Of a stretch of 40,562 nucleotides of DNA, positions 30,901 through 38,512 are shown piece by piece. Below the pieces are notes generated by a model. That model was not told the origin of the DNA. It made no database searches and was given only the letters and a program-made list of their open reading frames with translations. Every line of letters begins with the position of its first letter. The stretch's first letter is position 1. This stretch comes from Escherichia phage Zappy. The position numbers and the translations under genes were made by a program. Where the stretch lies: sequence record OQ870568.1, one strand, 5' to 3'.

Positions 30901-33582
30901 TTAAGCGAATGCAAAGTCTGAAGACAAGATGTCTTCGATATTCAGTTTACCTTTCTTCGGAAGCTCAGGCAACTTATCGCGCTGGCTCTCGTGAAGCTGG
31001 TATTCAAACTGCTCGTAGAAGTCAAGCAGCACATCGTTGTCGCGGTAGGTCTCGACCATCGTCTCACGGACGCCACGGAACAGATACTCAGCGTCAGCCG
31101 GGATGGTCCCGAAGCTATCGTGAATCACTGCGAATGACATCACGCCATACTTGCGGTGCGTGTGGACTACAGTCTTGCGTAGGTGGCTACCATCTTGTGA
31201 GTGGACGAAGTTCGGGCTAATGCCTGACTCCTGCTTGTGCTTGTCCAGCTCTTTCTTAGTACCTTTGTTGACTGTAGGCTGAAGGTTAAATGACCCTAAG
31301 AACATCAGGTTCAAACGTGTGGTATCCTTCTTGCGGTATTCCTGCCAGACCGGGAAACCATCAGGTGTTACCCAGTGTACAGGAAGGCAAGGCTTCAGGA
31401 TTTCACCAGTCTTCTTGTCCTTCACTTCAGCAGCCAGCAACTTGGCAGCGCCTTGAAGCCACTTCATCGCGTCAACCGCAGCAACTACTGTCACACTCAC
31501 AGCTTCCCAAATCATCTTAGCCATGAAGCGAGACGCTTGGCTCGGCTCGGTGAACATAGCGCCAGACCCTGAGTCAATCGCTGGCATCACGATGTCCTCG
31601 TAAACTTGGTCTGCGAAGCCGTACTCTTTCGACCCGTATGCCAGAGTCATGACTGAACGCTTAGTGACCTTGCGTGACATCCCGTAGGTCAGCCACTGAC
31701 GGGCCAGCTCTCGTGTCCCCAGCTTGATACGTTCGGTAATCTCACCAGTTTTCTTGTCCTCGTGAGTGACCATCTCGTTGTCAGTACCGTTAATCAGCAG
31801 GACTTTAAGCTCCTCATCAATGCGGTCAGACACGATGCGGTAGATGTCTTGGACCTTACCGGATGGCGTCAGATTTACTGCATGTCCACCAATGTGGTCA
31901 CGAAGCATCGCGCTGAAGTGCTGAATACCAGAGCAGGACCCATCGAACGCTATCGGCAGTGAGCAGGAGTAAGACAATCCGTGGTGCATTACACCAGCAT
32001 ACTCGAAGCAGAACGCAAGGAAGCAGAACGGAGAGTCTAACTTGCCCCACCACTCAATACTATCCATCGGTGCCTTAGCAGCAGCCATGATGTTTTCGTG
32101 GTTGTCTTCCACCCACTTGATGCGCTCCTCGAAGGTGACTTTATCAACACCCGCGCAGTTTGCACCATGGACCTTCAGCCATTTGAAACCGTCAGCACCA
32201 ATAGGCTTACCGACTGCCAGAGTCAGGAGACCCTTCTGCATGTCGTTACCCTGAGGGTTGAACATCGGCACAGCGTAGACTCGACCGCGCCAGTCCATGT
32301 TGTATGGAAACCAGATGGCCTTGAACTGAGAGAACTTATTCGCTTGGTTGACGATAAAGCTCAGTGATAATCTGCGTGACTGTCGGGCCTTCTCGCGGCG
32401 ATAGATACCAGCAGCAGCCTTCTTCCATGCCTTGAGTTCCTCCTCGGTCTCACCCGCATAGTCCTCAGGCTTCAGTGGTTCCATCTGAGGGATGTCATCG
32501 ATAGGCGTGTTGTTCAACTTCTCGACCATGTTCACCACGTCCAATACCTTCTTGTTTACTTTCCAAGGTGTATTTTGAATGATGTTCACAGCGTCATAGA
32601 CTTCAGGCATGTACACGTCTTCATAACGTGCTACCGCAGACTTAGACCCTAAGCGAATCAATGGTAACGGTCTGCGACCTTTGGCCCAGTACCCACCGCC
32701 TACTACACCAGTCCACGGCTTAGGTGGAACGACGCAAGGCTGGTAGACTGGAGCGATACCCGCAAGGCTGAATCCTCGTTGTGCCATCTTCTTGACCCAG
32801 AAGTCTGACAGGTGGACCATCTCAACGTCAGCCGCCGCATTGCCAGCACCATAACGCTTAAGCTCGACCAGTTGTGTGGACTGGATGACAATCTCTAGCA
32901 TCTTGATGCCAACGTGTACCGCTTCGGTCGGACTCCAAGTACCCCACGCATCTTCCAGTTGACCTTGCTCCAGCATGGAGGTCTCAACTGCTTGCATGTA
33001 GGCTTTCTTGTAGGATGCCCCGGACCGCTTATTCAGGTTATCAGCTATCGCCTTCTTGAAATGCTCTTTCTCCTTGTCACGGATGCGACCGAATCGGATT
33101 TCATCCTCAAGTGTGCGACCTATCGCGGAGGCCATTGGTGTAATCGGTATCCCTTCAGGCTTTACCAGCTTGGAGAGGATGACCTTCAGTATGATAACCG
33201 CAGCAGACTCACAGGAGATGCGCATCGAGCGGTCTTTAACGCCCTTCTCTTCAGTGCTCAACATGGTGAACGCTACGCTAGGACGTGAGGTTGACAGCTT
33301 CCCGTCTTGTCCTTCATGCCACTCCTTGACGGCTTGCGCAATCTTAGGTACCAGAGTCTGCATCAAAGGCTTGGCGACCTGATTGTCTGCCAGTTCCCCG
33401 CGCTCGGTCTGGCGCTCAAGGTTCTTGATGAAACGTCGCTCACCTTCTGTGTATGCCTCATGCTCAAGCTGAAGCTGTTTGACTGCAAGGTCTTGCCCGT
33501 AGTGGTCGGCCAGCAGGTTAAACGGCTCAATGGCGTTCGACACATCAGAGAAGTCGTGTTTGTCAATAGAGATGACGCTCAT
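30901..33582 (-). CDS. 1: Single-subunit DNA-directed RNA polymerase gp1, 893 aa
   Basis: ORF track; long near-identical stretches to T7 RNAP (PFCFLAFCFEYAGV, FDGSCSGIQHFSAMLRD, AIWFPYNMDWRGRVYAV, SFGTIPADA, C-terminal FAFA). Confidence 0.97.
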   Translation of the reverse strand: MSVISIDKHDFSDVSNAIEPFNLLADHYGQDLAVKQLQLEHEAYTEGERRFIKNLERQTERGELADNQVAKPLMQTLVPKIAQAVKEWHEGQDGKLSTSRPSVAFTMLSTEEKGVKDRSMRISCESAAVIILKVILSKLVKPEGIPITPMASAIGRTLEDEIRFGRIRDKEKEHFKKAIADNLNKRSGASYKKAYMQAVETSMLEQGQLEDAWGTWSPTEAVHVGIKMLEIVIQSTQLVELKRYGAGNAAADVEMVHLSDFWVKKMAQRGFSLAGIAPVYQPCVVPPKPWTGVVGGGYWAKGRRPLPLIRLGSKSAVARYEDVYMPEVYDAVNIIQNTPWKVNKKVLDVVNMVEKLNNTPIDDIPQMEPLKPEDYAGETEEELKAWKKAAAGIYRREKARQSRRLSLSFIVNQANKFSQFKAIWFPYNMDWRGRVYAVPMFNPQGNDMQKGLLTLAVGKPIGADGFKWLKVHGANCAGVDKVTFEERIKWVEDNHENIMAAAKAPMDSIEWWGKLDSPFCFLAFCFEYAGVMHHGLSYSCSLPIAFDGSCSGIQHFSAMLRDHIGGHAVNLTPSGKVQDIYRIVSDRIDEELKVLLINGTDNEMVTHEDKKTGEITERIKLGTRELARQWLTYGMSRKVTKRSVMTLAYGSKEYGFADQVYEDIVMPAIDSGSGAMFTEPSQASRFMAKMIWEAVSVTVVAAVDAMKWLQGAAKLLAAEVKDKKTGEILKPCLPVHWVTPDGFPVWQEYRKKDTTRLNLMFLGSFNLQPTVNKGTKKELDKHKQESGISPNFVHSQDGSHLRKTVVHTHRKYGVMSFAVIHDSFGTIPADAEYLFRGVRETMVETYRDNDVLLDFYEQFEYQLHESQRDKLPELPKKGKLNIEDILSSDFAFA

Positions 33583-33602
33583 ACTTAAAGTCCTTGTTAT
33601 TA

Positions 33603-33642
33603 GTCTTTCACTTAGAGTCTCTTTGGTCTTTCACTTGGAGTC
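33603..33642. repeat. 17-bp direct repeat x2 (gtctttcactt[a/g]gagtc) in the RNAP leader
   Basis: Two copies 23 bp apart between the promoter at 33652-33674 and the RNAP start codon. Confidence 0.6.
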
Positions 33643-33651
33643 TTAGACCTT

Positions 33652-33674
33652 GAGTCCTATAGTGATAGTTAAGT
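33652..33674 (-). promoter_or_regulatory. Phage RNAP promoter located 75 bp upstream of the RNAP gene itself, ACTTAACTATCACTATAGGACTC
   Basis: Motif match; lies between the stop of the 86-aa early ORF (33680) and the RNAP ATG (33582). Confidence 0.7.
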
Positions 33675-33679
33675 CATAA

Positions 33680-33940
33680 TTACTTGCATATCAGTGGGTT
33701 AGCGTGAAGATGACTGAAGTCACCGTGAGTCGTGTGCTTGATGGTCGACCGTTGGTCTATCGCCTTCCAGCCTGAGACTAAAAGTTTACCATCGTCAGTG
33801 ATCGGTCGTCCACCAAACGCCAGACTCATCAGTTCGTACTTATTGCCCTCAGCCCTCATGCGGCGATGTAAGAACACGTCACGCTCTATTTGCTCTACAC
33901 GGCTACGGATAGATGGTTTGTTAATGTATACGGTTTTCAT
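33680..33940 (-). CDS. Early hypothetical protein, 86 aa
   Basis: ORF track; start overlaps the upstream stop as TAATG; occupies the T7 0.4-0.7 region. No similarity recognised. Confidence 0.55.
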   Translation of the reverse strand: MKTVYINKPSIRSRVEQIERDVFLHRRMRAEGNKYELMSLAFGGRPITDDGKLLVSGWKAIDQRSTIKHTTHGDFSHLHANPLICK

Positions 33941-34137
33941 TACAGTTTGCTCCCAATAGTTGCTATATCCCAGACGTTCGCTAAGTTGCGCATGAATCGT
34001 CCGTTAGGTTGATGTACAGTCCAGCGGACCATACGTACATAGTTGAATTTATAGACTTTACGCGCTTTGTTGATGTCTCTCATCAGCACGTAGGCGATAA
34101 GTCCATAGCCTATGGCTATCAATAATGAAGATATCAT
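33940..34137 (-). CDS. Early small membrane protein, 65 aa (N-terminal transmembrane segment)
   Basis: ORF track; MISSLLIAIGYGLIAYVLM hydrophobic helix; coupled by ATGA overlap to the upstream 29-aa ORF. Confidence 0.5.
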   Translation of the reverse strand: MISSLLIAIGYGLIAYVLMRDINKARKVYKFNYVRMVRWTVHQPNGRFMRNLANVWDIATIGSKL

Positions 34138-34223
34138 AGTGATTTCCGTTTAATACAATCGTATACCCCATAACCTATCATCAAGATAACTGGCGCTAGA
34201 CATACCCAGTAACCGATGTTCAT
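34134..34223 (-). CDS. Possible early 29-aa membrane peptide (MNIGYWVCLAPVILMIGYGVYDCIKRKSL)
   Basis: ATG with AGGAG 6 nt upstream; stop overlaps the next start as ATGA. Confidence 0.35.
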   Translation of the reverse strand: MNIGYWVCLAPVILMIGYGVYDCIKRKSL

Positions 34224-34437
34224 AATTAACTCCTATCAATTTAAGTGATAATCTTTGAGGCCACCTATCAGTCGTGACCTCTCGTCTATCACTCAGTGTG
34301 TAAGCTGTCGTGCATACGTTTGCGGCGCTTATAGACCACCTTCAGGAGACGCATAGACTCCTCGTGGTTTAATCGCCCGGTCTTGACCATAAGCCGGGCG
34401 GTGGTGACGTGGTACTGGCAGAGACCATAAGTTACCA

Positions 34438-34770
34438 TCACTCGCAGTCCTCTTCAGCCTCGTACCAGACCACCTCAGAGCTATTAGACACATCGTTATA
34501 CAGTGCCTCATAGATGCGAGCTTGTAGTATACGCGTTACGTCCTTGGTCTCAGGCATCAGCCCAGAGTCTTCGAACTCATTGTCAATACCATCAGCAGCC
34601 ATCACCGTGTAAATCTCGTGGTAATAATGCGGAACATTACCGTCTACGACCTCATGCAGCGCATCGCTGTAGTCATCGCCTTCAGCTATTTCGTCGCACT
34701 GAATACGCTCATTGAACAGCTCAACGGTTGCAGCCAGCAGCTCATAGTATGCGTTAGCGTTACGTTCCAT
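34438..34770 (-). CDS. ocr: Ocr (gp0.3) DNA-mimic anti-restriction protein, 110 aa
   Basis: ORF track; VPHYY, EFEDSGLMPETKDVTRILQARIYE and the acidic C-terminus resemble T7 Ocr; first gene after the early promoters. Confidence 0.85.
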   Translation of the reverse strand: MERNANAYYELLAATVELFNERIQCDEIAEGDDYSDALHEVVDGNVPHYYHEIYTVMAADGIDNEFEDSGLMPETKDVTRILQARIYEALYNDVSNSSEVVWYEAEEDCE

Positions 34771-34804
34771 AGTTATATCCTCTCAGTTGTTAGTGACTAT
34801 CAGT

Positions 34805-34836
34805 CAGGGCCTTCAGATGTAGATTCAAAGGCCCTG
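34805..34836 (-). promoter_or_regulatory. Stable hairpin in the ocr leader (R0.3-like RNase III site candidate)
   Basis: Perfect 9-bp inverted repeat CAGGGCCTT...AAGGCCCTG with a 14-nt loop, 35 nt upstream of the ocr ATG. Confidence 0.5.
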
Positions 34837-34876
34837 TAGTTAGTCGCTATCGGCGCACATTAAGAGTTTATCCAGA

Positions 34877-34889
34877 TTGTTAAAGAGCA
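34877..34889 (-). promoter_or_regulatory. boxA-like element TGCTCTTTAACAA in the early leader
   Basis: Exact match to the E. coli rrn boxA core on the transcribed strand, downstream of the early promoter. Confidence 0.5.
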
Positions 34890-34959
34890 TTCCCTTCAGT
34901 CAGAGGACTTCAGGTAGACCATTTCAGTGTTGGTCATCACCGTTGTTTCGATGTGGTAC

Positions 34960-34989
34960 ATCTTACATCTTATCGTTACATCTTGTCAA
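34960..34989 (-). promoter_or_regulatory. Host sigma70 early promoter (T7 A2/A3-like): TTGACA - 18 bp - TAAGAT
   Basis: Minus-strand GTTGACAAGATGTAACGATAAGATGTAAGATGTACCACAT; -35 perfect, -10 TAAGAT as in T7 A2; downstream GTACCACAT as in T7 A3. Confidence 0.65.
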
Positions 34990-35101
34990 CTACTTTCTGT
35001 CATCTGCCTGTTGTTCGTATGACTGATCAGGCTGTCTACTTAACCGGGATGGTCCGGCGTCTTCACTATCCGGTTGTTGCCGTGTCGTGTTGACGGAAGC
35101 T

Positions 35102-35130
35102 ATTAGGCCATATCCTTGACCTATAGTCAA
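35102..35130 (-). promoter_or_regulatory. Possible second sigma70 early promoter (A1-like): TTGACT - 17 bp - CCTAAT, with AT-rich upstream tract
   Basis: Good -35 and UP-like AT-rich region, but poor -10. Confidence 0.3.
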
Positions 35131-35280
35131 TAGGTAATTTGAAATAATATTGATTAAGTTATCGTCGGCCCCATGGTGTAAGAGGATATAGTCTTTGACT
35201 AACATGTCTTTGACCTTAAGTCTATAGCTCTGTGTCTAGTAACTGTAGGTCTCTGACTGTAGGCGTTGGTGTCTTATGGT

Positions 35281-35373
35281 TGAGACTGTAGGTTAGTGAG
35301 ACTGTAGGTTAGTGAGACTGTAGGTTAGTGAGACTGTAGGTTAGTGAGACTGTAGGTTAGTGAGACTGTAGGT
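35281..35373. repeat. Tandem array of a 16-bp unit (tgagactgtaggttag), 5 perfect copies plus a partial one
   Basis: Read directly; the core CTGTAGG also recurs at 35243, 35256, 35651 and 35668. Confidence 0.9.
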
Positions 35374-35848
35374 GTAGGACGTAATGTTATACTATAACAC
35401 TATACAGATAGAGACTCAAAGAAGACCTATAGCCCCTACCTATCGTCCTTCCCTAAGCCATAGCCTAGACCTATCGTTGACCTGAAGTCTTTACCATCGG
35501 TCCAACCTTATGATAGACTGGCTGTGACTGCAAGGAGCAGTAACGGGTAGGGCCTTTGGTCTGGACTTAAAGAGGGCCTATGGGGAGACTTGAGGTTCTT
35601 GAACTGTGAGATGTGGTCTCAAACTTTTGGTCCAAAACTCATCGTCACTACTGTAGGCCACAGCCACTGTAGGCCAAGGACCGTAGGTCAGGCGACACTA
35701 GGATAGACCAATAAGTAGGATGACCCTAAGTGAGCTTCTCTTAAGGTGTTACCTAAAGTCCTTGACTGCAGTAGCTAAGGTCAGTAGAGTAGCGTCAGCT
35801 ATGAACTGACCTTAGGTCTTCCGCTCATGAATCGTTACCATGATTGCG

Positions 35849-36007
35849 TTAATTACACTGAGAGACCAGAGAGCATACGAGAGTCTCGACCCACCCGACC
35901 CACTGACTTCCAGCAGTAACGCCAGCAGCAAGTAGAACAGCAGCAAGAAACCTGTATGTAGCTCGATTGGTCGCCAGAGCTTTAAGTACAGCTTTGGTCT
36001 TTGCCAT
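35849..36007 (-). CDS. Possible small membrane protein, 52 aa, at the gene 19.5 position
   Basis: Hand translation MAKTKAVLKALATNRATYRFLAAVLLAAGVTAGSQWVGWVETLVCSLVSQCN; AGGAGG 8 nt upstream of the ATG. Confidence 0.4.
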   Translation of the reverse strand: MAKTKAVLKALATNRATYRFLAAVLLAAGVTAGSQWVGWVETLVCSLVSQCN

Positions 36008-36153
36008 ATGCTACATACCTCCTGTATCTATGGTCGGTGACTATCTGTATTTGAGGGATTATGATTAATATCACCCTCCTCTATAGGGAGACTTAGAGTC
36101 TTATCTATATGCTAACTTTTAGTCGGCATACTATAAGGTCCCCCTAGGTCCCC

Positions 36154-36176
36154 CATCCCTATAGTGATAGTTAAGT
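36154..36176 (-). promoter_or_regulatory. Phage RNAP promoter (phiOR-like), ACTTAACTATCACTATAGGGATG
   Basis: Motif match; last promoter before the probable right genome end. Confidence 0.7.
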
Positions 36177-36189
36177 TAACCTATTGAAT

Positions 36190-36732
36190 TTACTTGTGGT
36201 TTCTCTTGGCCCTATCACGCTTAGGGGACCGTAGGGAAACAGCGTACTCCTTGTGCTTCTCTTCACGTAGTGCTGTCAGCCATGCTTCAAGTTCTATCAC
36301 AGAGTCGGAAGTCTTTGTGTAGCACTTACCCTTAAGTCGCAACTGAGCGCGATACTTTCCGGTAGGCTTGAAGAAGCTGATACCCTTAGGGAGACCATTA
36401 GTCTCGCCACCTCCTGAGTTCCATCTGTTCTCCAATGCTGTTACTAACCTGTAGTTATCCGGCCTGTCATCAAGCCTATCACCATTGATATGGTCAACCA
36501 TCATGCCAGAAGGTATTCGACCAACGGCTAGGCTGTAGATGATTCTGGCACGTCTATAGCGACTACCAAGGACCTTCACGATTGCGTACCCAGACGGATG
36601 GACTGAATGTCCCATGACCTCGCCTGGCTTCTTGTTAGAGCCTTTATAGGACTTCTTGCACACCAACTCACCATCTACATAAGCATAGTGATTAAAGAGG
36701 GCCACCCTGTCGATGGCCTTCTGTTTACTCAT
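36190..36732 (-). CDS. HNH homing endonuclease (HNH-B), 180 aa, immediately downstream of the large terminase gene
   Basis: ORF track; GRIPSGMMVDHINGDRLDDRPDNYRLVT HNH motif; RBS AGGAGG. Confidence 0.8.
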   Translation of the reverse strand: MSKQKAIDRVALFNHYAYVDGELVCKKSYKGSNKKPGEVMGHSVHPSGYAIVKVLGSRYRRARIIYSLAVGRIPSGMMVDHINGDRLDDRPDNYRLVTALENRWNSGGGETNGLPKGISFFKPTGKYRAQLRLKGKCYTKTSDSVIELEAWLTALREEKHKEYAVSLRSPKRDRAKRNHK

Positions 36733-36745
36733 ATTTCTCCTCCTA

Positions 36746-38512
36746 TTAGTGGAACGTAACGTATGACCCTAGTCCCAGCTCGTCGTCCGTATCGTGAGTT
36801 ACCCGGACCCCATTGTCCCAGAACTCAGTGTGGATGGACTCGAAGCCTTTCCGTGGGTTCTCCATCTGTTCCTCCAGCCACTCCTCAGTGACTTCACGTT
36901 CGCCTTTGTTGGCATCCTTAGCCATCGACTCAACGAAGAACTGTACACCGATAGCCAGCGCATCAAGTCGGTCATCGTGTGCCAAGGCTCCACGCTCACG
37001 AGAGATACGGGTCATCTGGTAGAAGAGAGAGTAGATAGGGTTACGAACACCATCCTTATCAGAGGCTGACTGGTAGTCTTGGACGATAGCAGCAGCGTTG
37101 ACGATAAGTCTGTGAGACCCCATGATAGGCTCCAGAACGTCACAGATTCGGAGTTCCTTCTGACCCTTACTCTTCACTTCAGTTACAGCAGCGGGATGAA
37201 TACGGGCAGCTACAGGCTTGAATAACTCAAGGTACATACCATCACCGAAGTTACCCTCAATGACGTATTCGTTTACCTTCCACTTACGACCAATCTTAGC
37301 CAAGGCTTCCAGCGTAGAGTCTTCATAACCACCGCGCATACCACCAACTTCCATAGCGAAGATGTAGCCGTTTAGCTGATATAGTACCGCATAACCAGTT
37401 TCATCCTTACCGCGACCACTAGGGTCAATGACCAGAATCTTCTGGGTGTATGAGCTGAAGGCAGAACCTACAGTCTGATACGTGTGGTACGAGTCACCCA
37501 TGAGGCCAACGTTAGGAACGTCCTCACGCTTGTTCTGAGGGTTAGGAAGCCATTGGTAGACCATTGGGCTGGACTCTGGGTCCAAGTCTGCTACGATAAG
37601 GTCACGGAGCTTCAGAGGGTACTTCTCGGCATCACTCAGGTTAGGGTTAAGCATGAACTGTAGAGCGAAGCCAGCTTTACCATAGGACAGCTCACGTTCC
37701 TTCAGGTCCGTATCATCGAATCGTACTTCATCGGTAGGACGCCAGTAGAAGGACTCAGGGTCCTCTTCAAGCTCTGCCTGAAGCATAGGAGCCAGACGGT
37801 CGCCGTAAGACTGCCAGTCCTTCTTATCGCGTGGGTAGCGAGCGGGCCAGATGGTAGTGGTATATCCACGACCTTCCAGCTCACGATACAAGGTCATCTC
37901 GTTCTGAGGAGTACCCAGATAGATGATTGTACCTCCCGGCTTCAGGATAGCGTCGAACTCTTTCACAAGCTCTGACAGACGGTCTCGTGCAGCCTGAGTC
38001 GCTGAGTTGTTCGGAACCTCCACGTCATCGGCAATCAGGATGTCAGCACGACTACCAGTCAACTGACCAGTGATACCAACGGACTTAACTGAAGGTGAGT
38101 GGTCTGGCTTGGCTGGTCCAACGTCGAAGCTGATAACCGCATCTCGCTGCCCCTGCTTAGGTTTAAGTTCCTGAAGCTGAGGCATGAGGTCGATGATTCG
38201 CTTGATGAAGATGGAGTTCGCATCGGCTCGTTCCTTTGAGGCCGACACAATCATGAACTTCAAGTCTGGGTTGTTCCATAGTTTCCAGACCACGAAACCA
38301 CAGGTCAGAAACGACTTGCCAATACCACGGAACGCCTGAAGGATGAAGCGGCGATTATCCCCAGCAGCCAGCTTCTTACACATATCTATCTGGCAGCGGG
38401 TTGGAACCGGAAGGCTAAGAGCTTTCCAGAGAACGAAGATGAAGAACACGAAGTCGTCCCTCATCCTTTGGGTCATTTCTGCCTGTCTTTCAACAGGTGT
38501 TTTCTTAGACAT
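36746..38512 (-). CDS. 19: Terminase large subunit (DNA maturase B) gp19, 588 aa
   Basis: ORF track; near-identical stretches to T7 gp19 ([74 protein letters not shown]). Confidence 0.95.

What the first reader, a model, noticed from the sequence alone, without database searches (positions are those of the whole stretch)
33680..34770. Early anti-defence/takeover module: Ocr plus three translationally coupled small ORFs, no gp0.7 kinase homologue
Ocr is followed by a chain of ORFs of 29, 65 and 86 aa joined by ATGA or TAATG overlaps; two have transmembrane-like N-termini. No homologue of the T7 protein kinase/host shut-off protein gp0.7 was seen between ocr and the RNAP gene. The small proteins are unrecognisable to me and sit where T7-like phages keep host-takeover and anti-defence functions.
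Basis: partly seen in the sequence, partly recalled or inferred. Interest (0 to 1): 0.55.

Follow-up and report, generated by a model that had tools for sequence, protein, structure and literature searches.

The report
K1F-type early host-takeover gene cluster
This is the ordinary early operon of a K1F-like relative of phage T7. It holds the anti-restriction protein Ocr, an overlooked 49-residue relative of T7's cell-division inhibitor Gp0.4, and three small conserved proteins of unknown function. It has no T7-type kinase.

Summary
The window is Escherichia phage Zappy, a K1F-like (Kayfunavirus) T7-group phage; its genes run on the minus strand.

**Confirmed:**
- The ORFs of 29, 65 and 86 aa and their ATGA/TAATG overlaps are real, conserved and under purifying selection.
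- No gp0.7 kinase exists anywhere in the window.

- A 49-aa ORF (34289-34438) is the one actually coupled to ocr, through a TGATG overlap.
- It belongs to Pfam Phage_T7_GP04, the family of the T7 FtsZ inhibitor.
- It keeps 5 of 6 experimentally defined FtsZ-contact residues.
- It is the obvious candidate for the "unknown" FtsZ inhibitor of K1F.

**Layout:** A homologue of T7's RNase III site R0.5 separates the 49-aa ORF from the 29-65-86 chain. The layout therefore copies T7 (0.3-0.4 | R0.5 | 0.5-0.6-0.7).

**The three small proteins:**
- The 65-aa protein is in the T3 gp0.6 / phiYeO3-12 gp0.6A family, which is uncharacterised.
- The 29-aa peptide is a positional analogue of T7 gp0.5.
- The 86-aa protein (K1F gp0.38) belongs to a narrow orphan family. 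It is unrelated to the gp0.7 shut-off domain and coexists with a kinase in phage CR8.

The arrangement has been in K1F records since 2005. This is an ordinary T7-type early operon, and three functions remain unknown.

The parts
34960..34989 (-). sigma-70-like promoter (TTGACA-18-TAAGAT) upstream of ocr; candidate host-RNAP early promoter
   Evidence: Consensus scan gives 10 of 12 matches. The number of such sites in the region is not above shuffles, so this is weak evidence.
34791..34849 (-). hairpin upstream of ocr, at the position of T7/T3 RNase III site R0.3
   Evidence: The 90-nt stretch containing the hairpin folds at -24.7 kcal/mol with z -3.45; 0 of 200 shuffles fold as well. T3 and phiYeO3-12 records annotate R0.3 at the equivalent place.
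34438..34770 (-). ocr (DNA-mimic anti-restriction protein), 110 aa
   Evidence: Pfam PF08684 at 3.9e-31. phrog_2568 at 6.7e-52. 50% identity to T7 gp0.3. dN/dS 0.18.
34289..34438 (-). It is a member of the T7 Gp0.4 (FtsZ inhibitor) family. Its start overlaps the ocr stop as TGATG.
   Evidence: All 23 relatives carry PF26807.1, which is named Phage_T7_GP04. hhalign against the T7 Gp0.4 family gives E 5.9e-5. An expanded Gp0.4 HMM hits it at 7.6e-5. Reciprocal PHROG hits and a bridging sequence link the families. AF2 predicts a helical hairpin at pLDDT 88.8. dN/dS 0.30.
34242..34295 (-). hairpin homologous to the T7 RNase III processing site R0.5
   Evidence: -24.4 kcal/mol, z -5.9. It aligns with the T7 hairpin that lies between genes 0.4 and 0.5, with 30 invariant columns. 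It is conserved in front of the same cassette in K1F-like loci and in CR8.
34134..34223 (-). 29-aa single-TM micropeptide ORF with AGGAG Shine-Dalgarno; not annotated in this phage's record; positional analogue of T7 gene 0.5
   Evidence: dN/dS 0.18 against about 1.27 in the other frames, over 11 genomes. Intact in 90 phage records. The exact sequence is absent from the 15-billion-protein collection. SD shown.
33940..34137 (-). 65-aa protein with an N-terminal TM helix and a basic tail (K1F gp0.37, also annotated '0.6'); T3 gp0.6 / phiYeO3-12 gp0.6A family; ATGA overlap with the 29-aa ORF and a weak Shine-Dalgarno of its own
   Evidence: phrog_2385 at 1e-29, and T3 gp0.6 hits the same PHROG at 9.1e-30. 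40% identity to T3 gp0.6 over 60 aa. Alignment A6. dN/dS 0.36.
33680..33940 (-). 86-aa basic helical protein (K1F gp0.38) with a conserved C-terminal motif K-H-T-T-x-G-D-F-S-H-L-H; orphan family; TAATG overlap with the 65-aa ORF
   Evidence: phrog_7066 at 3.7e-39. Only 14 representatives among 1.84 billion. AF2 predicts three helices plus a low-confidence tail at pLDDT 70. No fold or PDB matches outside the family. dN/dS 0.31.
33652..33674 (-). phage-RNAP promoter (core ATCACTATAGG) between the 86-aa stop and gene 1; marks the end of the module transcribed only by host RNAP
   Evidence: It is one of 9 CACTATAGG sites on the - strand; all 9 share the extended core ATCACTATAGG. It is conserved before gene 1 in K1F and most K1F-like loci, and absent in T7, T3 and CR8.
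30901..33582 (-). gene 1, T7-type single-subunit RNA polymerase (downstream boundary of the module)
   Evidence: 63% identity to T7 gp1 over the full length.

Best explanation
The region is the class-I (early) operon of a Kayfunavirus (K1F-like T7-group phage), laid out like T7's.

**Transcription and processing (inferred from homology with T7)**
- Host RNA polymerase transcribes it from the genome left end.
- RNase III cuts at hairpins equivalent to R0.3, R0.5 and R1.
- This yields an ocr + 49-aa mRNA, a 29 + 65 + 86-aa mRNA and the gene 1 mRNA.
- Overlapping stop and start codons couple translation within each mRNA.

**Gene products**
- Ocr is shown by homology. It mimics DNA and blocks type I restriction.
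- The 49-aa protein is shown to be a member of the T7 Gp0.4 family. It is inferred to bind the FtsZ monomer through the same helical-hairpin face and so block Z-ring assembly. This would account for the division block seen in K1F infection. It has lost the residues that CapRel(Ebc) uses to sense T7 Gp0.4.
- The 29-aa peptide and the 65-aa T3-gp0.6-type protein are inferred from sequence features only. They are probably small inner-membrane proteins made in a fixed ratio. The basic tail of the 65-aa protein probably faces the cytoplasm. They would act on a membrane-associated host process, as T7 gp0.5/gp0.6 do at the same position.
- The 86-aa protein is a cytoplasmic helical protein that probably docks on a host partner through its conserved C-terminal tail. 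Its target is unknown.

**Kinase**
The kinase is simply absent in this genus. The three-gene cassette is not its replacement.
For: **Identity and synteny**
- The region is 98% identical to Escherichia phage SR04 and 94-96% to K1F, and the gene order matches. The 86-aa product is 100% identical to a protein of phage Zappy on a 40562-bp contig.
- T7 has 0.3/0.4 with a 1-nt overlap, then 0.5/0.6A with an ATGA overlap.
- The hairpin at 34242-34295 aligns with the T7 hairpin between genes 0.4 and 0.5.

**The 49-aa ORF belongs to the Gp0.4 family**
- All 23 relatives (71-90% identical) carry PF26807.1. This is Pfam 'Phage_T7_GP04', seen on the CR8 Gp0.4 homologue.
- hhalign gives E 5.9e-5 over 41 columns.
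- An HMM of the Gp0.4 family hits every K1F-type orthologue (4e-8 to 6e-3). Apart from one further ORF in locus L033 (1.6e-8), nothing else among 1581 ORFs scores below 0.1.
- A 48-aa protein in locus L043 hits both PHROGs: 1.7e-19 and 3.3e-8.
- The two types are mutually exclusive across 49 loci.
- AF2 predicts a helical hairpin at pLDDT 88.8. It matches CR8 W6PPJ7 with TM 0.72-0.77. PMC4944311 treats that protein as a Gp0.4 homologue.

**Function of the 49-aa protein**
- PMC13423816 shows that V15, V22, W28, M32, L35 and Y39 of T7 Gp0.4 are each needed for toxicity. In the alignment they map to V11, V18, H25, M29, L32 and Y36, so 5 of 6 are identical. With 14 of 41 identities overall, my hypergeometric p is about 0.013.
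- The CapRel-contact residues A12, T14, L16, S19 and R23 map to Q, H, T, R and K, so 0 of 5 are identical.
- PMC9372555 reports that K1F infection gives multi-ring filaments. It states that the responsible peptide is unknown and that K1F lacks 0.4.

**The small ORFs are real genes**
- dN/dS is 0.18-0.36, and each has a ribosome-binding site or an overlap.

**The cassette is independent of the kinase**
- CR8 carries a 242-aa kinase, then an R0.5-like hairpin, a 34-aa hydrophobic peptide, a 64-aa protein and a 118-aa protein.
Against: - No experiment was done here. RNase III cleavage, expression timing and FtsZ binding are inferred by homology.
- W28 of T7 Gp0.4 is essential (W28L and W28A abolish activity, PMC13423816). 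It is a near-invariant His in the K1F-type proteins.
- The K1F-type protein is strongly basic (net +6), unlike T7 Gp0.4. The target or affinity may therefore differ.
- hhalign probability is only 65%. A two-helix hairpin is a simple fold.
- The Pfam model itself could not be run locally.
- No function-bearing relative was found for the 29-, 65- and 86-aa proteins. Pfam, NCBIfam, PDB sequence search, the exhaustive profile search (86-aa family only) and Foldseek (86-aa model only) all found nothing. The proposed membrane and host-partner roles rest on composition and position only.
- The sigma-70 promoter calls are no more frequent than in shuffled sequence.
Confidence: 0.7

Rival explanations
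1. One reading: the 29-, 65- and 86-aa proteins are a novel anti-defence or host shut-off set that compensates for the missing gp0.7 kinase.
For: - They occupy the slot between R0.5 and gene 1, where T7 has 0.5, 0.6 and 0.7.
- T7 kinase is now known as a broad anti-defence factor (PMC13645617), so a kinase-less genus might need substitutes.
- The 86-aa family is seen only where the kinase or its C-terminal shut-off domain is missing. That covers the K1F-type loci and CR8, whose kinase is 242 aa.
Against: - CR8 carries the cassette together with a kinase gene.
- The 65-aa family also occurs beside full-length kinases in T3, phiYeO3-12 and loci L033, L040, L042 and L058.
- The 86-aa profile shows no relation to the gp0.7 shut-off domain (hhalign probability 0.65%) or to anything in the T7, T3 or phiYeO3-12 early regions.
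- The anti-correlation with the shut-off domain rests on very few independent lineages.
Confidence: 0.15
2. The 49-aa protein is a Gp0.4-family member by descent but has changed target. The K1F division block would then be caused by another early protein, for example the 65-aa or 86-aa protein.
For: - The essential W28 is replaced by His, and the charge is reversed to net +6 (PMC13423816).
- Identity to T7 Gp0.4 is only 34%.
Against: - Five of six functionally validated FtsZ-contact residues are identical, and all six positions are invariant or nearly so within the K1F-type family.
- The bridging protein in L043 has Phe at the W28 position, so aromatic or planar side chains are tolerated there.
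- K1F does block FtsZ (PMC9372555), and no other K1F early protein resembles any known FtsZ inhibitor.
Confidence: 0.25
3. The smallest ORF (29 aa), and perhaps others, are chance ORFs in an untranslated leader. The overlaps would then be coincidental.
For: - The 29-aa ORF is not annotated in Zappy, SR04, phiYIO1-1 or vB_EcoP_F.
- It matches no protein family.
Against: - dN/dS is 0.18 with pS 0.53, against about 1.27 in the other frames.
- The ORF keeps its full length in 90 records at 59-100% identity.
- It has an AGGAG Shine-Dalgarno 7 nt before its ATG.
- The ATGA junction with the 65-aa gene is conserved.
- The 65-aa gene has almost no Shine-Dalgarno of its own.
Confidence: 0.04

Closest known systems
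Bacteriophage K1F early region (genes 0.3, 0.35, 0.36, 0.37/'0.6', 0.38, 1)
   Same: - Same gene order and 94-96% nucleotide identity.
- The 49-, 65- and 86-aa proteins are orthologues of gp0.35, gp0.37 and gp0.38.
- There is no gene 0.7.
   Different: - Ocr is 110 aa here and 169 aa in K1F.
- K1F has an unrelated 55-aa two-TM gp0.36 where this phage has the 29-aa ORF. Locus L024 has both.
- K1F gp0.2 is absent here.
T7 class I region (0.3, 0.4, R0.5, 0.5, 0.6A/B, 0.7, R1, 1)
   Same: - Ocr is followed by a roughly 50-aa Gp0.4-family gene with a one-base stop/start overlap.
- A homologous R0.5 hairpin follows.
- A small hydrophobic peptide is then coupled by ATGA to the next gene, followed by gene 1.
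   Different: - There is no kinase.
- The 29-aa peptide is not homologous to gp0.5 (hhalign probability 0.5%).
- The 65-aa protein is not detectably homologous to gp0.6A (hhalign probability 0.3%).
- An 86-aa orphan gene sits in the 0.7 slot.
- A phage promoter lies directly in front of gene 1.
T7 Gp0.4, FtsZ inhibitor (Pfam PF26807 Phage_T7_GP04)
   Same: - Same family by Pfam, PHROG, HMM and profile-profile evidence.
- Same locus position.
- Same predicted two-helix hairpin.
- Five of six FtsZ-contact residues are identical.
   Different: - Only 34% identity.
- W28 is replaced by His.
- The protein is basic instead of mildly acidic.
- None of the five CapRel(Ebc)-contact residues is kept (PMC13423816).
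T3 gp0.6 / phiYeO3-12 gp0.6A (phrog_2385), function unknown
   Same: - 65 aa, with an N-terminal TM helix.
- Shared motifs: an invariant Asp (R/K-D) at the end of the TM helix, R-(W/F)-T-(V/A)-R..N-G-R-F and A-T.
- Same PHROG, and the position after R0.5 is equivalent.
   Different: - 33-40% identity.
- A five-residue deletion.
- The C-terminus differs: IGSKL here, against the '...YIATH' end that T3 shares with T7 gp0.6A.
- No 0.6B-type frameshift product is annotated.
Citrobacter phage CR8 early region
   Same: It has the same cassette: an R0.5-like hairpin, a small hydrophobic peptide, a 64-aa gp0.6-type protein and a gp0.38-type protein (118 aa), followed by gene 1.
   Different: - CR8 also has a T7-type Gp0.4 and a 242-aa kinase without the shut-off domain.
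- Its micropeptide (34 aa) has an unrelated sequence.

Membership tests
Ocr (Pfam PF08684, DNA mimic) | Match to the family model above the curated threshold | tested here: met
   108 bits against a cutoff of 25, E 3.9e-31, covering profile positions 5-97 of 101.
Ocr (Pfam PF08684, DNA mimic) | Strongly acidic surface; first gene of the early operon | tested here: met
   Net charge -23 in 110 aa. It is the first substantial gene after the left-end promoter region.
T7 Gp0.4 family (Pfam PF26807 Phage_T7_GP04) - the 49-aa ORF | Match to the family model | tested here: met
   All 23 relatives carry precomputed PF26807.1. They include P0002, which represents the window protein's own 90% cluster. 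The local Pfam copy lacks the model. Independent support: HMM E 7.6e-5, hhalign E 5.9e-5, and T7 Gp0.4 against phrog_5058 at 9e-5.
T7 Gp0.4 family (Pfam PF26807 Phage_T7_GP04) - the 49-aa ORF | About 50 aa, encoded immediately after ocr with an overlapping stop/start | tested here: met
   TGATG overlap at 34438. T7 0.3 ends and 0.4 starts at base 1278. TAATG or TGATG junctions occur in 16 T7-like loci.
T7 Gp0.4 family (Pfam PF26807 Phage_T7_GP04) - the 49-aa ORF | U-shaped two-helix hairpin | tested here: met
   The AF2 model has pLDDT 88.8 with helices 8-20 and 25-47. Foldseek matches CR8 W6PPJ7 at TM 0.72/0.77. The fold is described in PMC4944311.
T7 Gp0.4 family (Pfam PF26807 Phage_T7_GP04) - the 49-aa ORF | FtsZ-contact residues V15, V22, W28, M32, L35, Y39 (PMC13423816) | tested here: inconclusive
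   Five of six are identical (V11, V18, M29, L32, Y36). The essential W28 is His25.
T7 Gp0.4 family (Pfam PF26807 Phage_T7_GP04) - the 49-aa ORF | Binds the FtsZ monomer, blocks Z-ring assembly, and is toxic when overexpressed | not testable with these tools
   Only indirect evidence exists: K1F infection disrupts FtsZ rings (PMC9372555).
T3 gp0.6 / phiYeO3-12 gp0.6A (phrog_2385) - the 65-aa ORF | Match to the family profile and to T3 gp0.6 itself | tested here: met
   phrog_2385 at 1e-29, with T3 gp0.6 at 9.1e-30 to the same profile. blastp gives 40% identity over 60 aa, E 9e-9.
T3 gp0.6 / phiYeO3-12 gp0.6A (phrog_2385) - the 65-aa ORF | N-terminal TM helix followed by a basic tail; located after R0.5 | tested here: met
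   KD maximum 2.33 at residues 5-19 and net charge +8. Alignment A6. Positions shown.
T7 gp0.6A (MreB inhibitor) - the 65-aa ORF | Sequence homology to T7 gp0.6A | tested here: not met
   hhalign probability 0.3%. Smith-Waterman is no better than shuffles, p 0.25. Only T3 gp0.6 shares a C-terminal 20-aa similarity with T7 gp0.6A, p about 0.003.
T7 gp0.5 - the 29-aa ORF | Sequence homology to T7 gp0.5 | tested here: not met
   hhalign probability 0.5%. There is no PHROG in common. Only the position (first ORF after R0.5, ATGA-coupled to the next gene) and the hydrophobicity are shared.
T7 gp0.7 protein kinase / shut-off protein | Presence of a kinase-domain homologue in the genome | tested here: not met
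   tblastn best E 1.1. A ten-sequence kinase HMM against the six-frame window gives best E 0.67.
T7 gp0.7 protein kinase / shut-off protein | The 86-aa protein as a stand-alone shut-off (C-terminal) domain | tested here: not met
   hhalign of A4 against shut-off-domain alignment A7 gives probability 0.65%.
T7-type RNase III processing site R0.5 | Irregular hairpin of about 50 nt with the conserved stems, located between the 0.4-type gene and the next gene | tested here: met
   -24.4 kcal/mol, z -5.9. 30 invariant columns are shared with the T7 hairpin. No Rfam model exists for it.
T7-type RNase III processing site R0.5 | Cleavage by host RNase III | not testable with these tools
   This needs RNA-end mapping in infected cells.

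The most novel reading that the evidence does not exclude
The RNase-III-delimited cassette (hydrophobic micropeptide, T3-gp0.6-type membrane protein, gp0.38-type protein) would be a self-contained, previously unrecognised host-takeover or anti-defence unit of T7-group phages. The two membrane proteins would form a complex in fixed stoichiometry, as suggested by the ATGA coupling and the weak SD of the 65-aa gene. The 86-aa protein, through its invariant C-terminal K-H-T-T-x-G-D-F-x-H-L tail, would supply the host shut-off activity that T7 keeps in the C-terminal domain of gp0.7. This would explain why the family is seen only in phages lacking that domain.
Probability: 0.1. Interest if true: 0.6.

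Novelty: new member of a known kind. Interest (0 to 1): 0.3.

Why it matters
**A testable candidate for an open question.** A 2022 study (PMC9372555) showed that K1F blocks FtsZ. It concluded that K1F lacks gene 0.4 and that the inhibitor is unknown and "likely novel". The 49-aa ORF next to ocr is a divergent Gp0.4-family member in every K1F-type genome examined, so it is the first gene to delete or express.

**A natural separation-of-function variant.** The 49-aa ORF keeps the FtsZ face but none of the residues that the CapRel(Ebc) defence protein uses to sense T7 Gp0.4 (PMC13423816). It is therefore a possible natural variant for the FtsZ-guarding model.

**Otherwise ordinary.**
- The arrangement is annotated in K1F records.
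- The absence of the kinase is a genus trait.
One of them, a 29-aa micropeptide, is missing from many annotations.

Tried and rejected
1. **Kinase elsewhere in the window.** tblastn and a kinase HMM on all six frames found nothing.
2. **86-aa protein as a relative of the gp0.7 shut-off domain.** hhalign probability is 0.65%. A search of all frames of the T7, T3 and phiYeO3-12 early regions gave best E 0.33. Rejected.
3. **86-aa protein, remote homology and fold.**
   - An exhaustive profile search of 1.84 billion representatives found only 14 family members.
   - Foldseek against BFVD and PDB found only its own family.
   - PDB sequence search, NCBIfam and Pfam found nothing.
   - The AF2 model is only moderate (pLDDT 70), and its most conserved segment has low confidence.
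4. **65-aa protein as a relative of T7 gp0.6A (MreB inhibitor).**
   - Not supported.
   - A shared K-x-Y...T-V-x-x-P-[DN]-G spacing and the T3/T7 C-terminal similarity remain only hints.
5. **29-aa peptide as a relative of T7 gp0.5.** Not supported.
6. **Depletion of Ser/Thr/Tyr in early proteins as a footprint of kinase presence (PMC13645617).** RNAP gives 0.135 here against 0.123 in T7 and T3. Ocr gives 0.155 against 0.148. The difference is too small to interpret.
7. **Rfam scan of 33400-36200.** No family matched.
8. **Local Pfam copy.** It lacks PF26807, so it reported no hit for the 49-aa ORF or for T7 Gp0.4 itself. The family name was recovered indirectly.
9. **Scholl and Merril 2005 K1F genome paper.** It is not in the held library. 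The statement that K1F lacks 0.7 therefore rests on the two annotated K1F records.
10. **Literature on gp0.35-gp0.38.** The only mention is in one BLAST table.
Full report
**What the window is.** The stretch 33500-35000 is 98% identical to Escherichia phage SR04 and 94-96% identical to phage K1F and other members of the genus Kayfunavirus (Autographiviridae, Studiervirinae). The 86-aa product is 100% identical to a protein of Escherichia phage Zappy, carried on a contig of exactly the window's length. All genes in this part run on the minus strand. The T7-type RNA polymerase gene is at 30901-33582 and is 63% identical to T7 gp1.

**Checking the observation.**
- Ocr is real. The ORF 34438-34770 scores 108 bits against Pfam ocr and is 50% identical to T7 gp0.3.
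The junctions read ATGA and TAATG on the coding strand.
- The 29- and 65-aa products have clearly hydrophobic N-termini.
- There is no gp0.7. T7 gp0.7 finds nothing by tblastn (best E 1.1). An HMM built from ten T7/T3-type kinases finds nothing in the six-frame translation of the whole window (best E 0.67).
- The ORFs are not chance. Across 11-15 related genomes, dN/dS in the annotated frame is 0.18 (ocr), 0.30 (49 aa), 0.18 (29 aa), 0.36 (65 aa) and 0.31 (86 aa). The same columns read in the other frames give ratios of 0.76-1.7.
- The 29-aa ORF is intact over 93-100% of its length in 90 phage records.

Ocr is not followed directly by the 29-65-86 chain.
- A 49-aa ORF (34289-34438) starts on the last base of the ocr stop codon (TGATG). 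It has a GAGGA Shine-Dalgarno inside the acidic tail of ocr.
- It is the orthologue of K1F gp0.35.
- After it comes a 65-nt spacer that folds into a strong hairpin (-24.4 kcal/mol, z -5.9).
- This hairpin aligns with the T7 hairpin between genes 0.4 and 0.5, with 30 invariant columns. By established knowledge of T7, that T7 hairpin is the RNase III site R0.5. T3 and phiYeO3-12 records annotate the equivalent sites.
- A second hairpin lies upstream of ocr, where R0.3 would be.
- The region therefore consists of two translationally coupled groups separated by a processing site. This is exactly the T7 layout: 0.3 and 0.4 share one base, and 0.5 and 0.6A share ATGA.

**The 49-aa ORF is a Gp0.4-family protein.** Pairwise similarity to T7 Gp0.4 is weak: 36% over 39 residues. 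It exceeds shuffles at p about 0.0002. The profile evidence agrees:
- T7 Gp0.4 hits the PHROG of the 49-aa ORF (phrog_5058) at 9e-5. The ORF hits the T7 Gp0.4 PHROG (phrog_7202) at 0.026.
- A 48-aa protein that follows ocr in a T7-like contig (L043) hits both PHROGs, at 1.7e-19 and 3.3e-8.
- hhalign of the two family alignments gives E 5.9e-5 over 41 columns.
- An HMM of the Gp0.4 family, expanded with two divergent members, picks out every K1F-type orthologue. Apart from one further ORF in locus L033 (1.6e-8), nothing else among 1581 ORFs scores below E 0.1.
- All 23 database relatives of the ORF carry a precomputed hit to PF26807.1. That family proved to be 'Phage_T7_GP04' when seen on the Gp0.4 homologue of phage CR8. 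The local Pfam copy lacks this model, which is why direct scans were empty even for T7 Gp0.4 itself.
- In 49 loci, the K1F type and the T7 type never co-occur.
- The AF2 model is a confident two-helix hairpin (pLDDT 88.8). Beyond its own family, its best structural matches are small proteins of T7-like phages. One is CR8 W6PPJ7 (TM 0.72-0.77), which PMC4944311 used as a Gp0.4 homologue when proposing the U-shaped fold.

**What this implies for function.**
- PMC13423816 showed that single alanine substitutions of V15, V22, W28, M32, L35 or Y39 abolish Gp0.4 toxicity. It also showed that W28L and L35P abolish FtsZ binding.
- In the hhalign alignment these positions map to V11, V18, H25, M29, L32 and Y36 of the window protein. 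Five of six are identical although overall identity is 14 of 41. My hypergeometric estimate is p about 0.013. All six positions are invariant or nearly so in the K1F-type family.
- The five residues that contact the defence protein CapRel(Ebc) (A12, T14, L16, S19, R23) map to Q, H, T, R and K, so none is kept.
- PMC9372555 reported that K1F infection produces multi-ring filaments. It stated that K1F lacks gene 0.4, that BLAST finds no similarity, and that the inhibitor is unknown. The 49-aa ORF is therefore the obvious candidate.
- Points against: the essential Trp is a His, the protein is strongly basic (net +6), and nothing here measures binding.

**The 65-aa protein.**
- It belongs to phrog_2385 (1e-29), as does T3 gp0.6 (9.1e-30). 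It is 40% identical to T3 gp0.6 over 60 residues.
- One K1F record already calls it '0.6'.
- The family shares an N-terminal TM helix with an invariant Tyr, an invariant Asp (R/K-D) at the helix end, and the motifs R-(W/F)-T-(V/A)-R..N-G-R-F and A-T.
- Members occur beside full-length kinases in T3, phiYeO3-12 and several contigs. The family is therefore not tied to kinase loss.
- I found no functional study of it.
- Homology to T7 gp0.6A, the MreB inhibitor at the same position, is not detectable for the window protein (hhalign probability 0.3%; shuffle p 0.25). T3 gp0.6 and T7 gp0.6A do share a similar C-terminal 20 residues (p about 0.003).

**The 29-aa ORF.**
- It has a good AGGAG site. 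The 65-aa gene has almost none and overlaps it by ATGA. This suggests that the 65-aa protein is made by re-initiation after the micropeptide.
- It is not annotated in Zappy, SR04, phiYIO1-1 or vB_EcoP_F. It is annotated in some other records.
- K1F has an unrelated 55-aa hydrophobic gene in its place, and one contig has both.
- CR8 has an unrelated 34-aa hydrophobic peptide there, and T7 has the hydrophobic gp0.5.
- The slot 'first ORF after R0.5' is thus always filled by a small hydrophobic peptide of changing sequence. No homology to gp0.5 was found.

**The 86-aa protein.**
- It belongs to phrog_7066. The family is very narrow: an exhaustive profile search of 1.84 billion representatives returned 14 proteins.
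- Longer forms (108-139 aa) differ by N-terminal extensions.
- The model has three helices (pLDDT 75-86 in the core) and a low-confidence tail. Yet that tail, I-K-H-T-T-x-G-D-F-S-H-L-H-A-N-P-L-I-C-K, is the most conserved part. It is kept in the most distant members as T-T-x-G-D-F-x-H-L.
- This pattern suits a docking motif, or possibly a metal site (His/His/His/Cys). That reading is inference.
- No fold or sequence relative with a known function was found.
- It is not related to the shut-off domain of gp0.7.
- It is seen only where that domain is absent: the K1F-type phages and CR8, whose kinase is 242 aa. The number of independent lineages is too small to build on.

**Overall reading.**
- This is a T7-type class-I operon in its Kayfunavirus form. 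The form has been annotated in public K1F records.
- One of the four small genes has a characterised relative. One has an uncharacterised T3 relative. Two are orphans.
- The absence of the kinase is a genus-level trait and not a peculiarity of this window: none of eleven K1F-type contigs has one.
- Confidence by step:

| Claim | Confidence |
|---|---|
| Operon identity and gene set | about 0.95 |
| Gp0.4-family membership of the 49-aa ORF | about 0.9 |
| The 49-aa protein inhibits FtsZ | about 0.6 |
| RNase III processing at the R0.5-like hairpin | about 0.75 |
| Proposed membrane or host-partner roles of the other three proteins | about 0.2-0.3 each |

**Interest.** Interest is modest. The practical gain is a concrete candidate for K1F's unidentified FtsZ inhibitor, which may also be a natural Gp0.4 variant invisible to CapRel(Ebc). 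A second gain is the recognition of a conserved micropeptide gene that many annotations omit.

Noticed in passing
window 33652-33674 (-): A phage-RNAP promoter (core ATCACTATAGG) sits directly between the 86-aa stop and the RNA polymerase gene. It is one of 9 such sites on the - strand. It is conserved there in K1F and most K1F-type loci, but absent before gene 1 in T7, T3 and CR8. This would give the polymerase gene positive feedback.
   Followed up: partly
window 35281-35373: A perfect tandem array of a 16-nt unit (TGAGACTGTAGGTTAG, 5.8 copies) lies near the genome left end, upstream of the early promoters. It probably belongs to the repeat arrays next to the terminal repeat of T7-like genomes. 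Its role was not examined.
   Followed up: no
window 36190-36732 (-) and 36746-38512 (-): An HNH_3 endonuclease ORF (Pfam 1.6e-14) lies directly downstream of the ORF I read as the large terminase (36746-38512, not checked against a family model). The window is a circular permutation of the linear genome, whose ends must lie between about 35400 and 36170. A further phage promoter is at about 36166.
   Followed up: partly
window 34990-35205 (-): A 71-aa ORF is orthologous to K1F gp0.1 (phrog_30192, 1.2e-45). The orthologue is named 'alpha,alpha-trehalase' in the vB_EcoP_F records, which looks like an annotation error.
   Followed up: no
window 34438-34770 (-) compared with L001 1114-1623: Ocr length is dimorphic in the genus. 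It is 110-114 aa here and in several loci, and 166-169 aa in K1F and others. The difference is a roughly 59-aa insertion just before the acidic C-terminus.
   Followed up: no
loci L022, L026, L027, L031 between the gp0.35-type gene and the 29-aa ORF: The gap between the Gp0.4-type gene and the 29-aa (or, in L022, 65-aa) ORF holds 400-620 nt of extra sequence in these K1F-type genomes. In L031 the R0.5-like hairpin stays with the downstream cassette. This looks like an accessory-gene hot spot.
   Followed up: partly
window 33940-34137 (-) compared with T7 gene 0.6A: The 65-aa protein and T7 gp0.6A share K-x-Y and T-V-x-x-P-[DN]-G with identical spacing. T3 gp0.6 shares its last 20 residues with T7 gp0.6A (shuffle p about 0.003). 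The link is not significant for the window protein.
   Followed up: partly
L071 (Citrobacter phage CR8) 1875-2603: The CR8 kinase is only 242 aa and lacks the C-terminal shut-off domain. CR8 is also the only kinase-bearing phage seen here that carries a gp0.38-type gene.
   Followed up: partly
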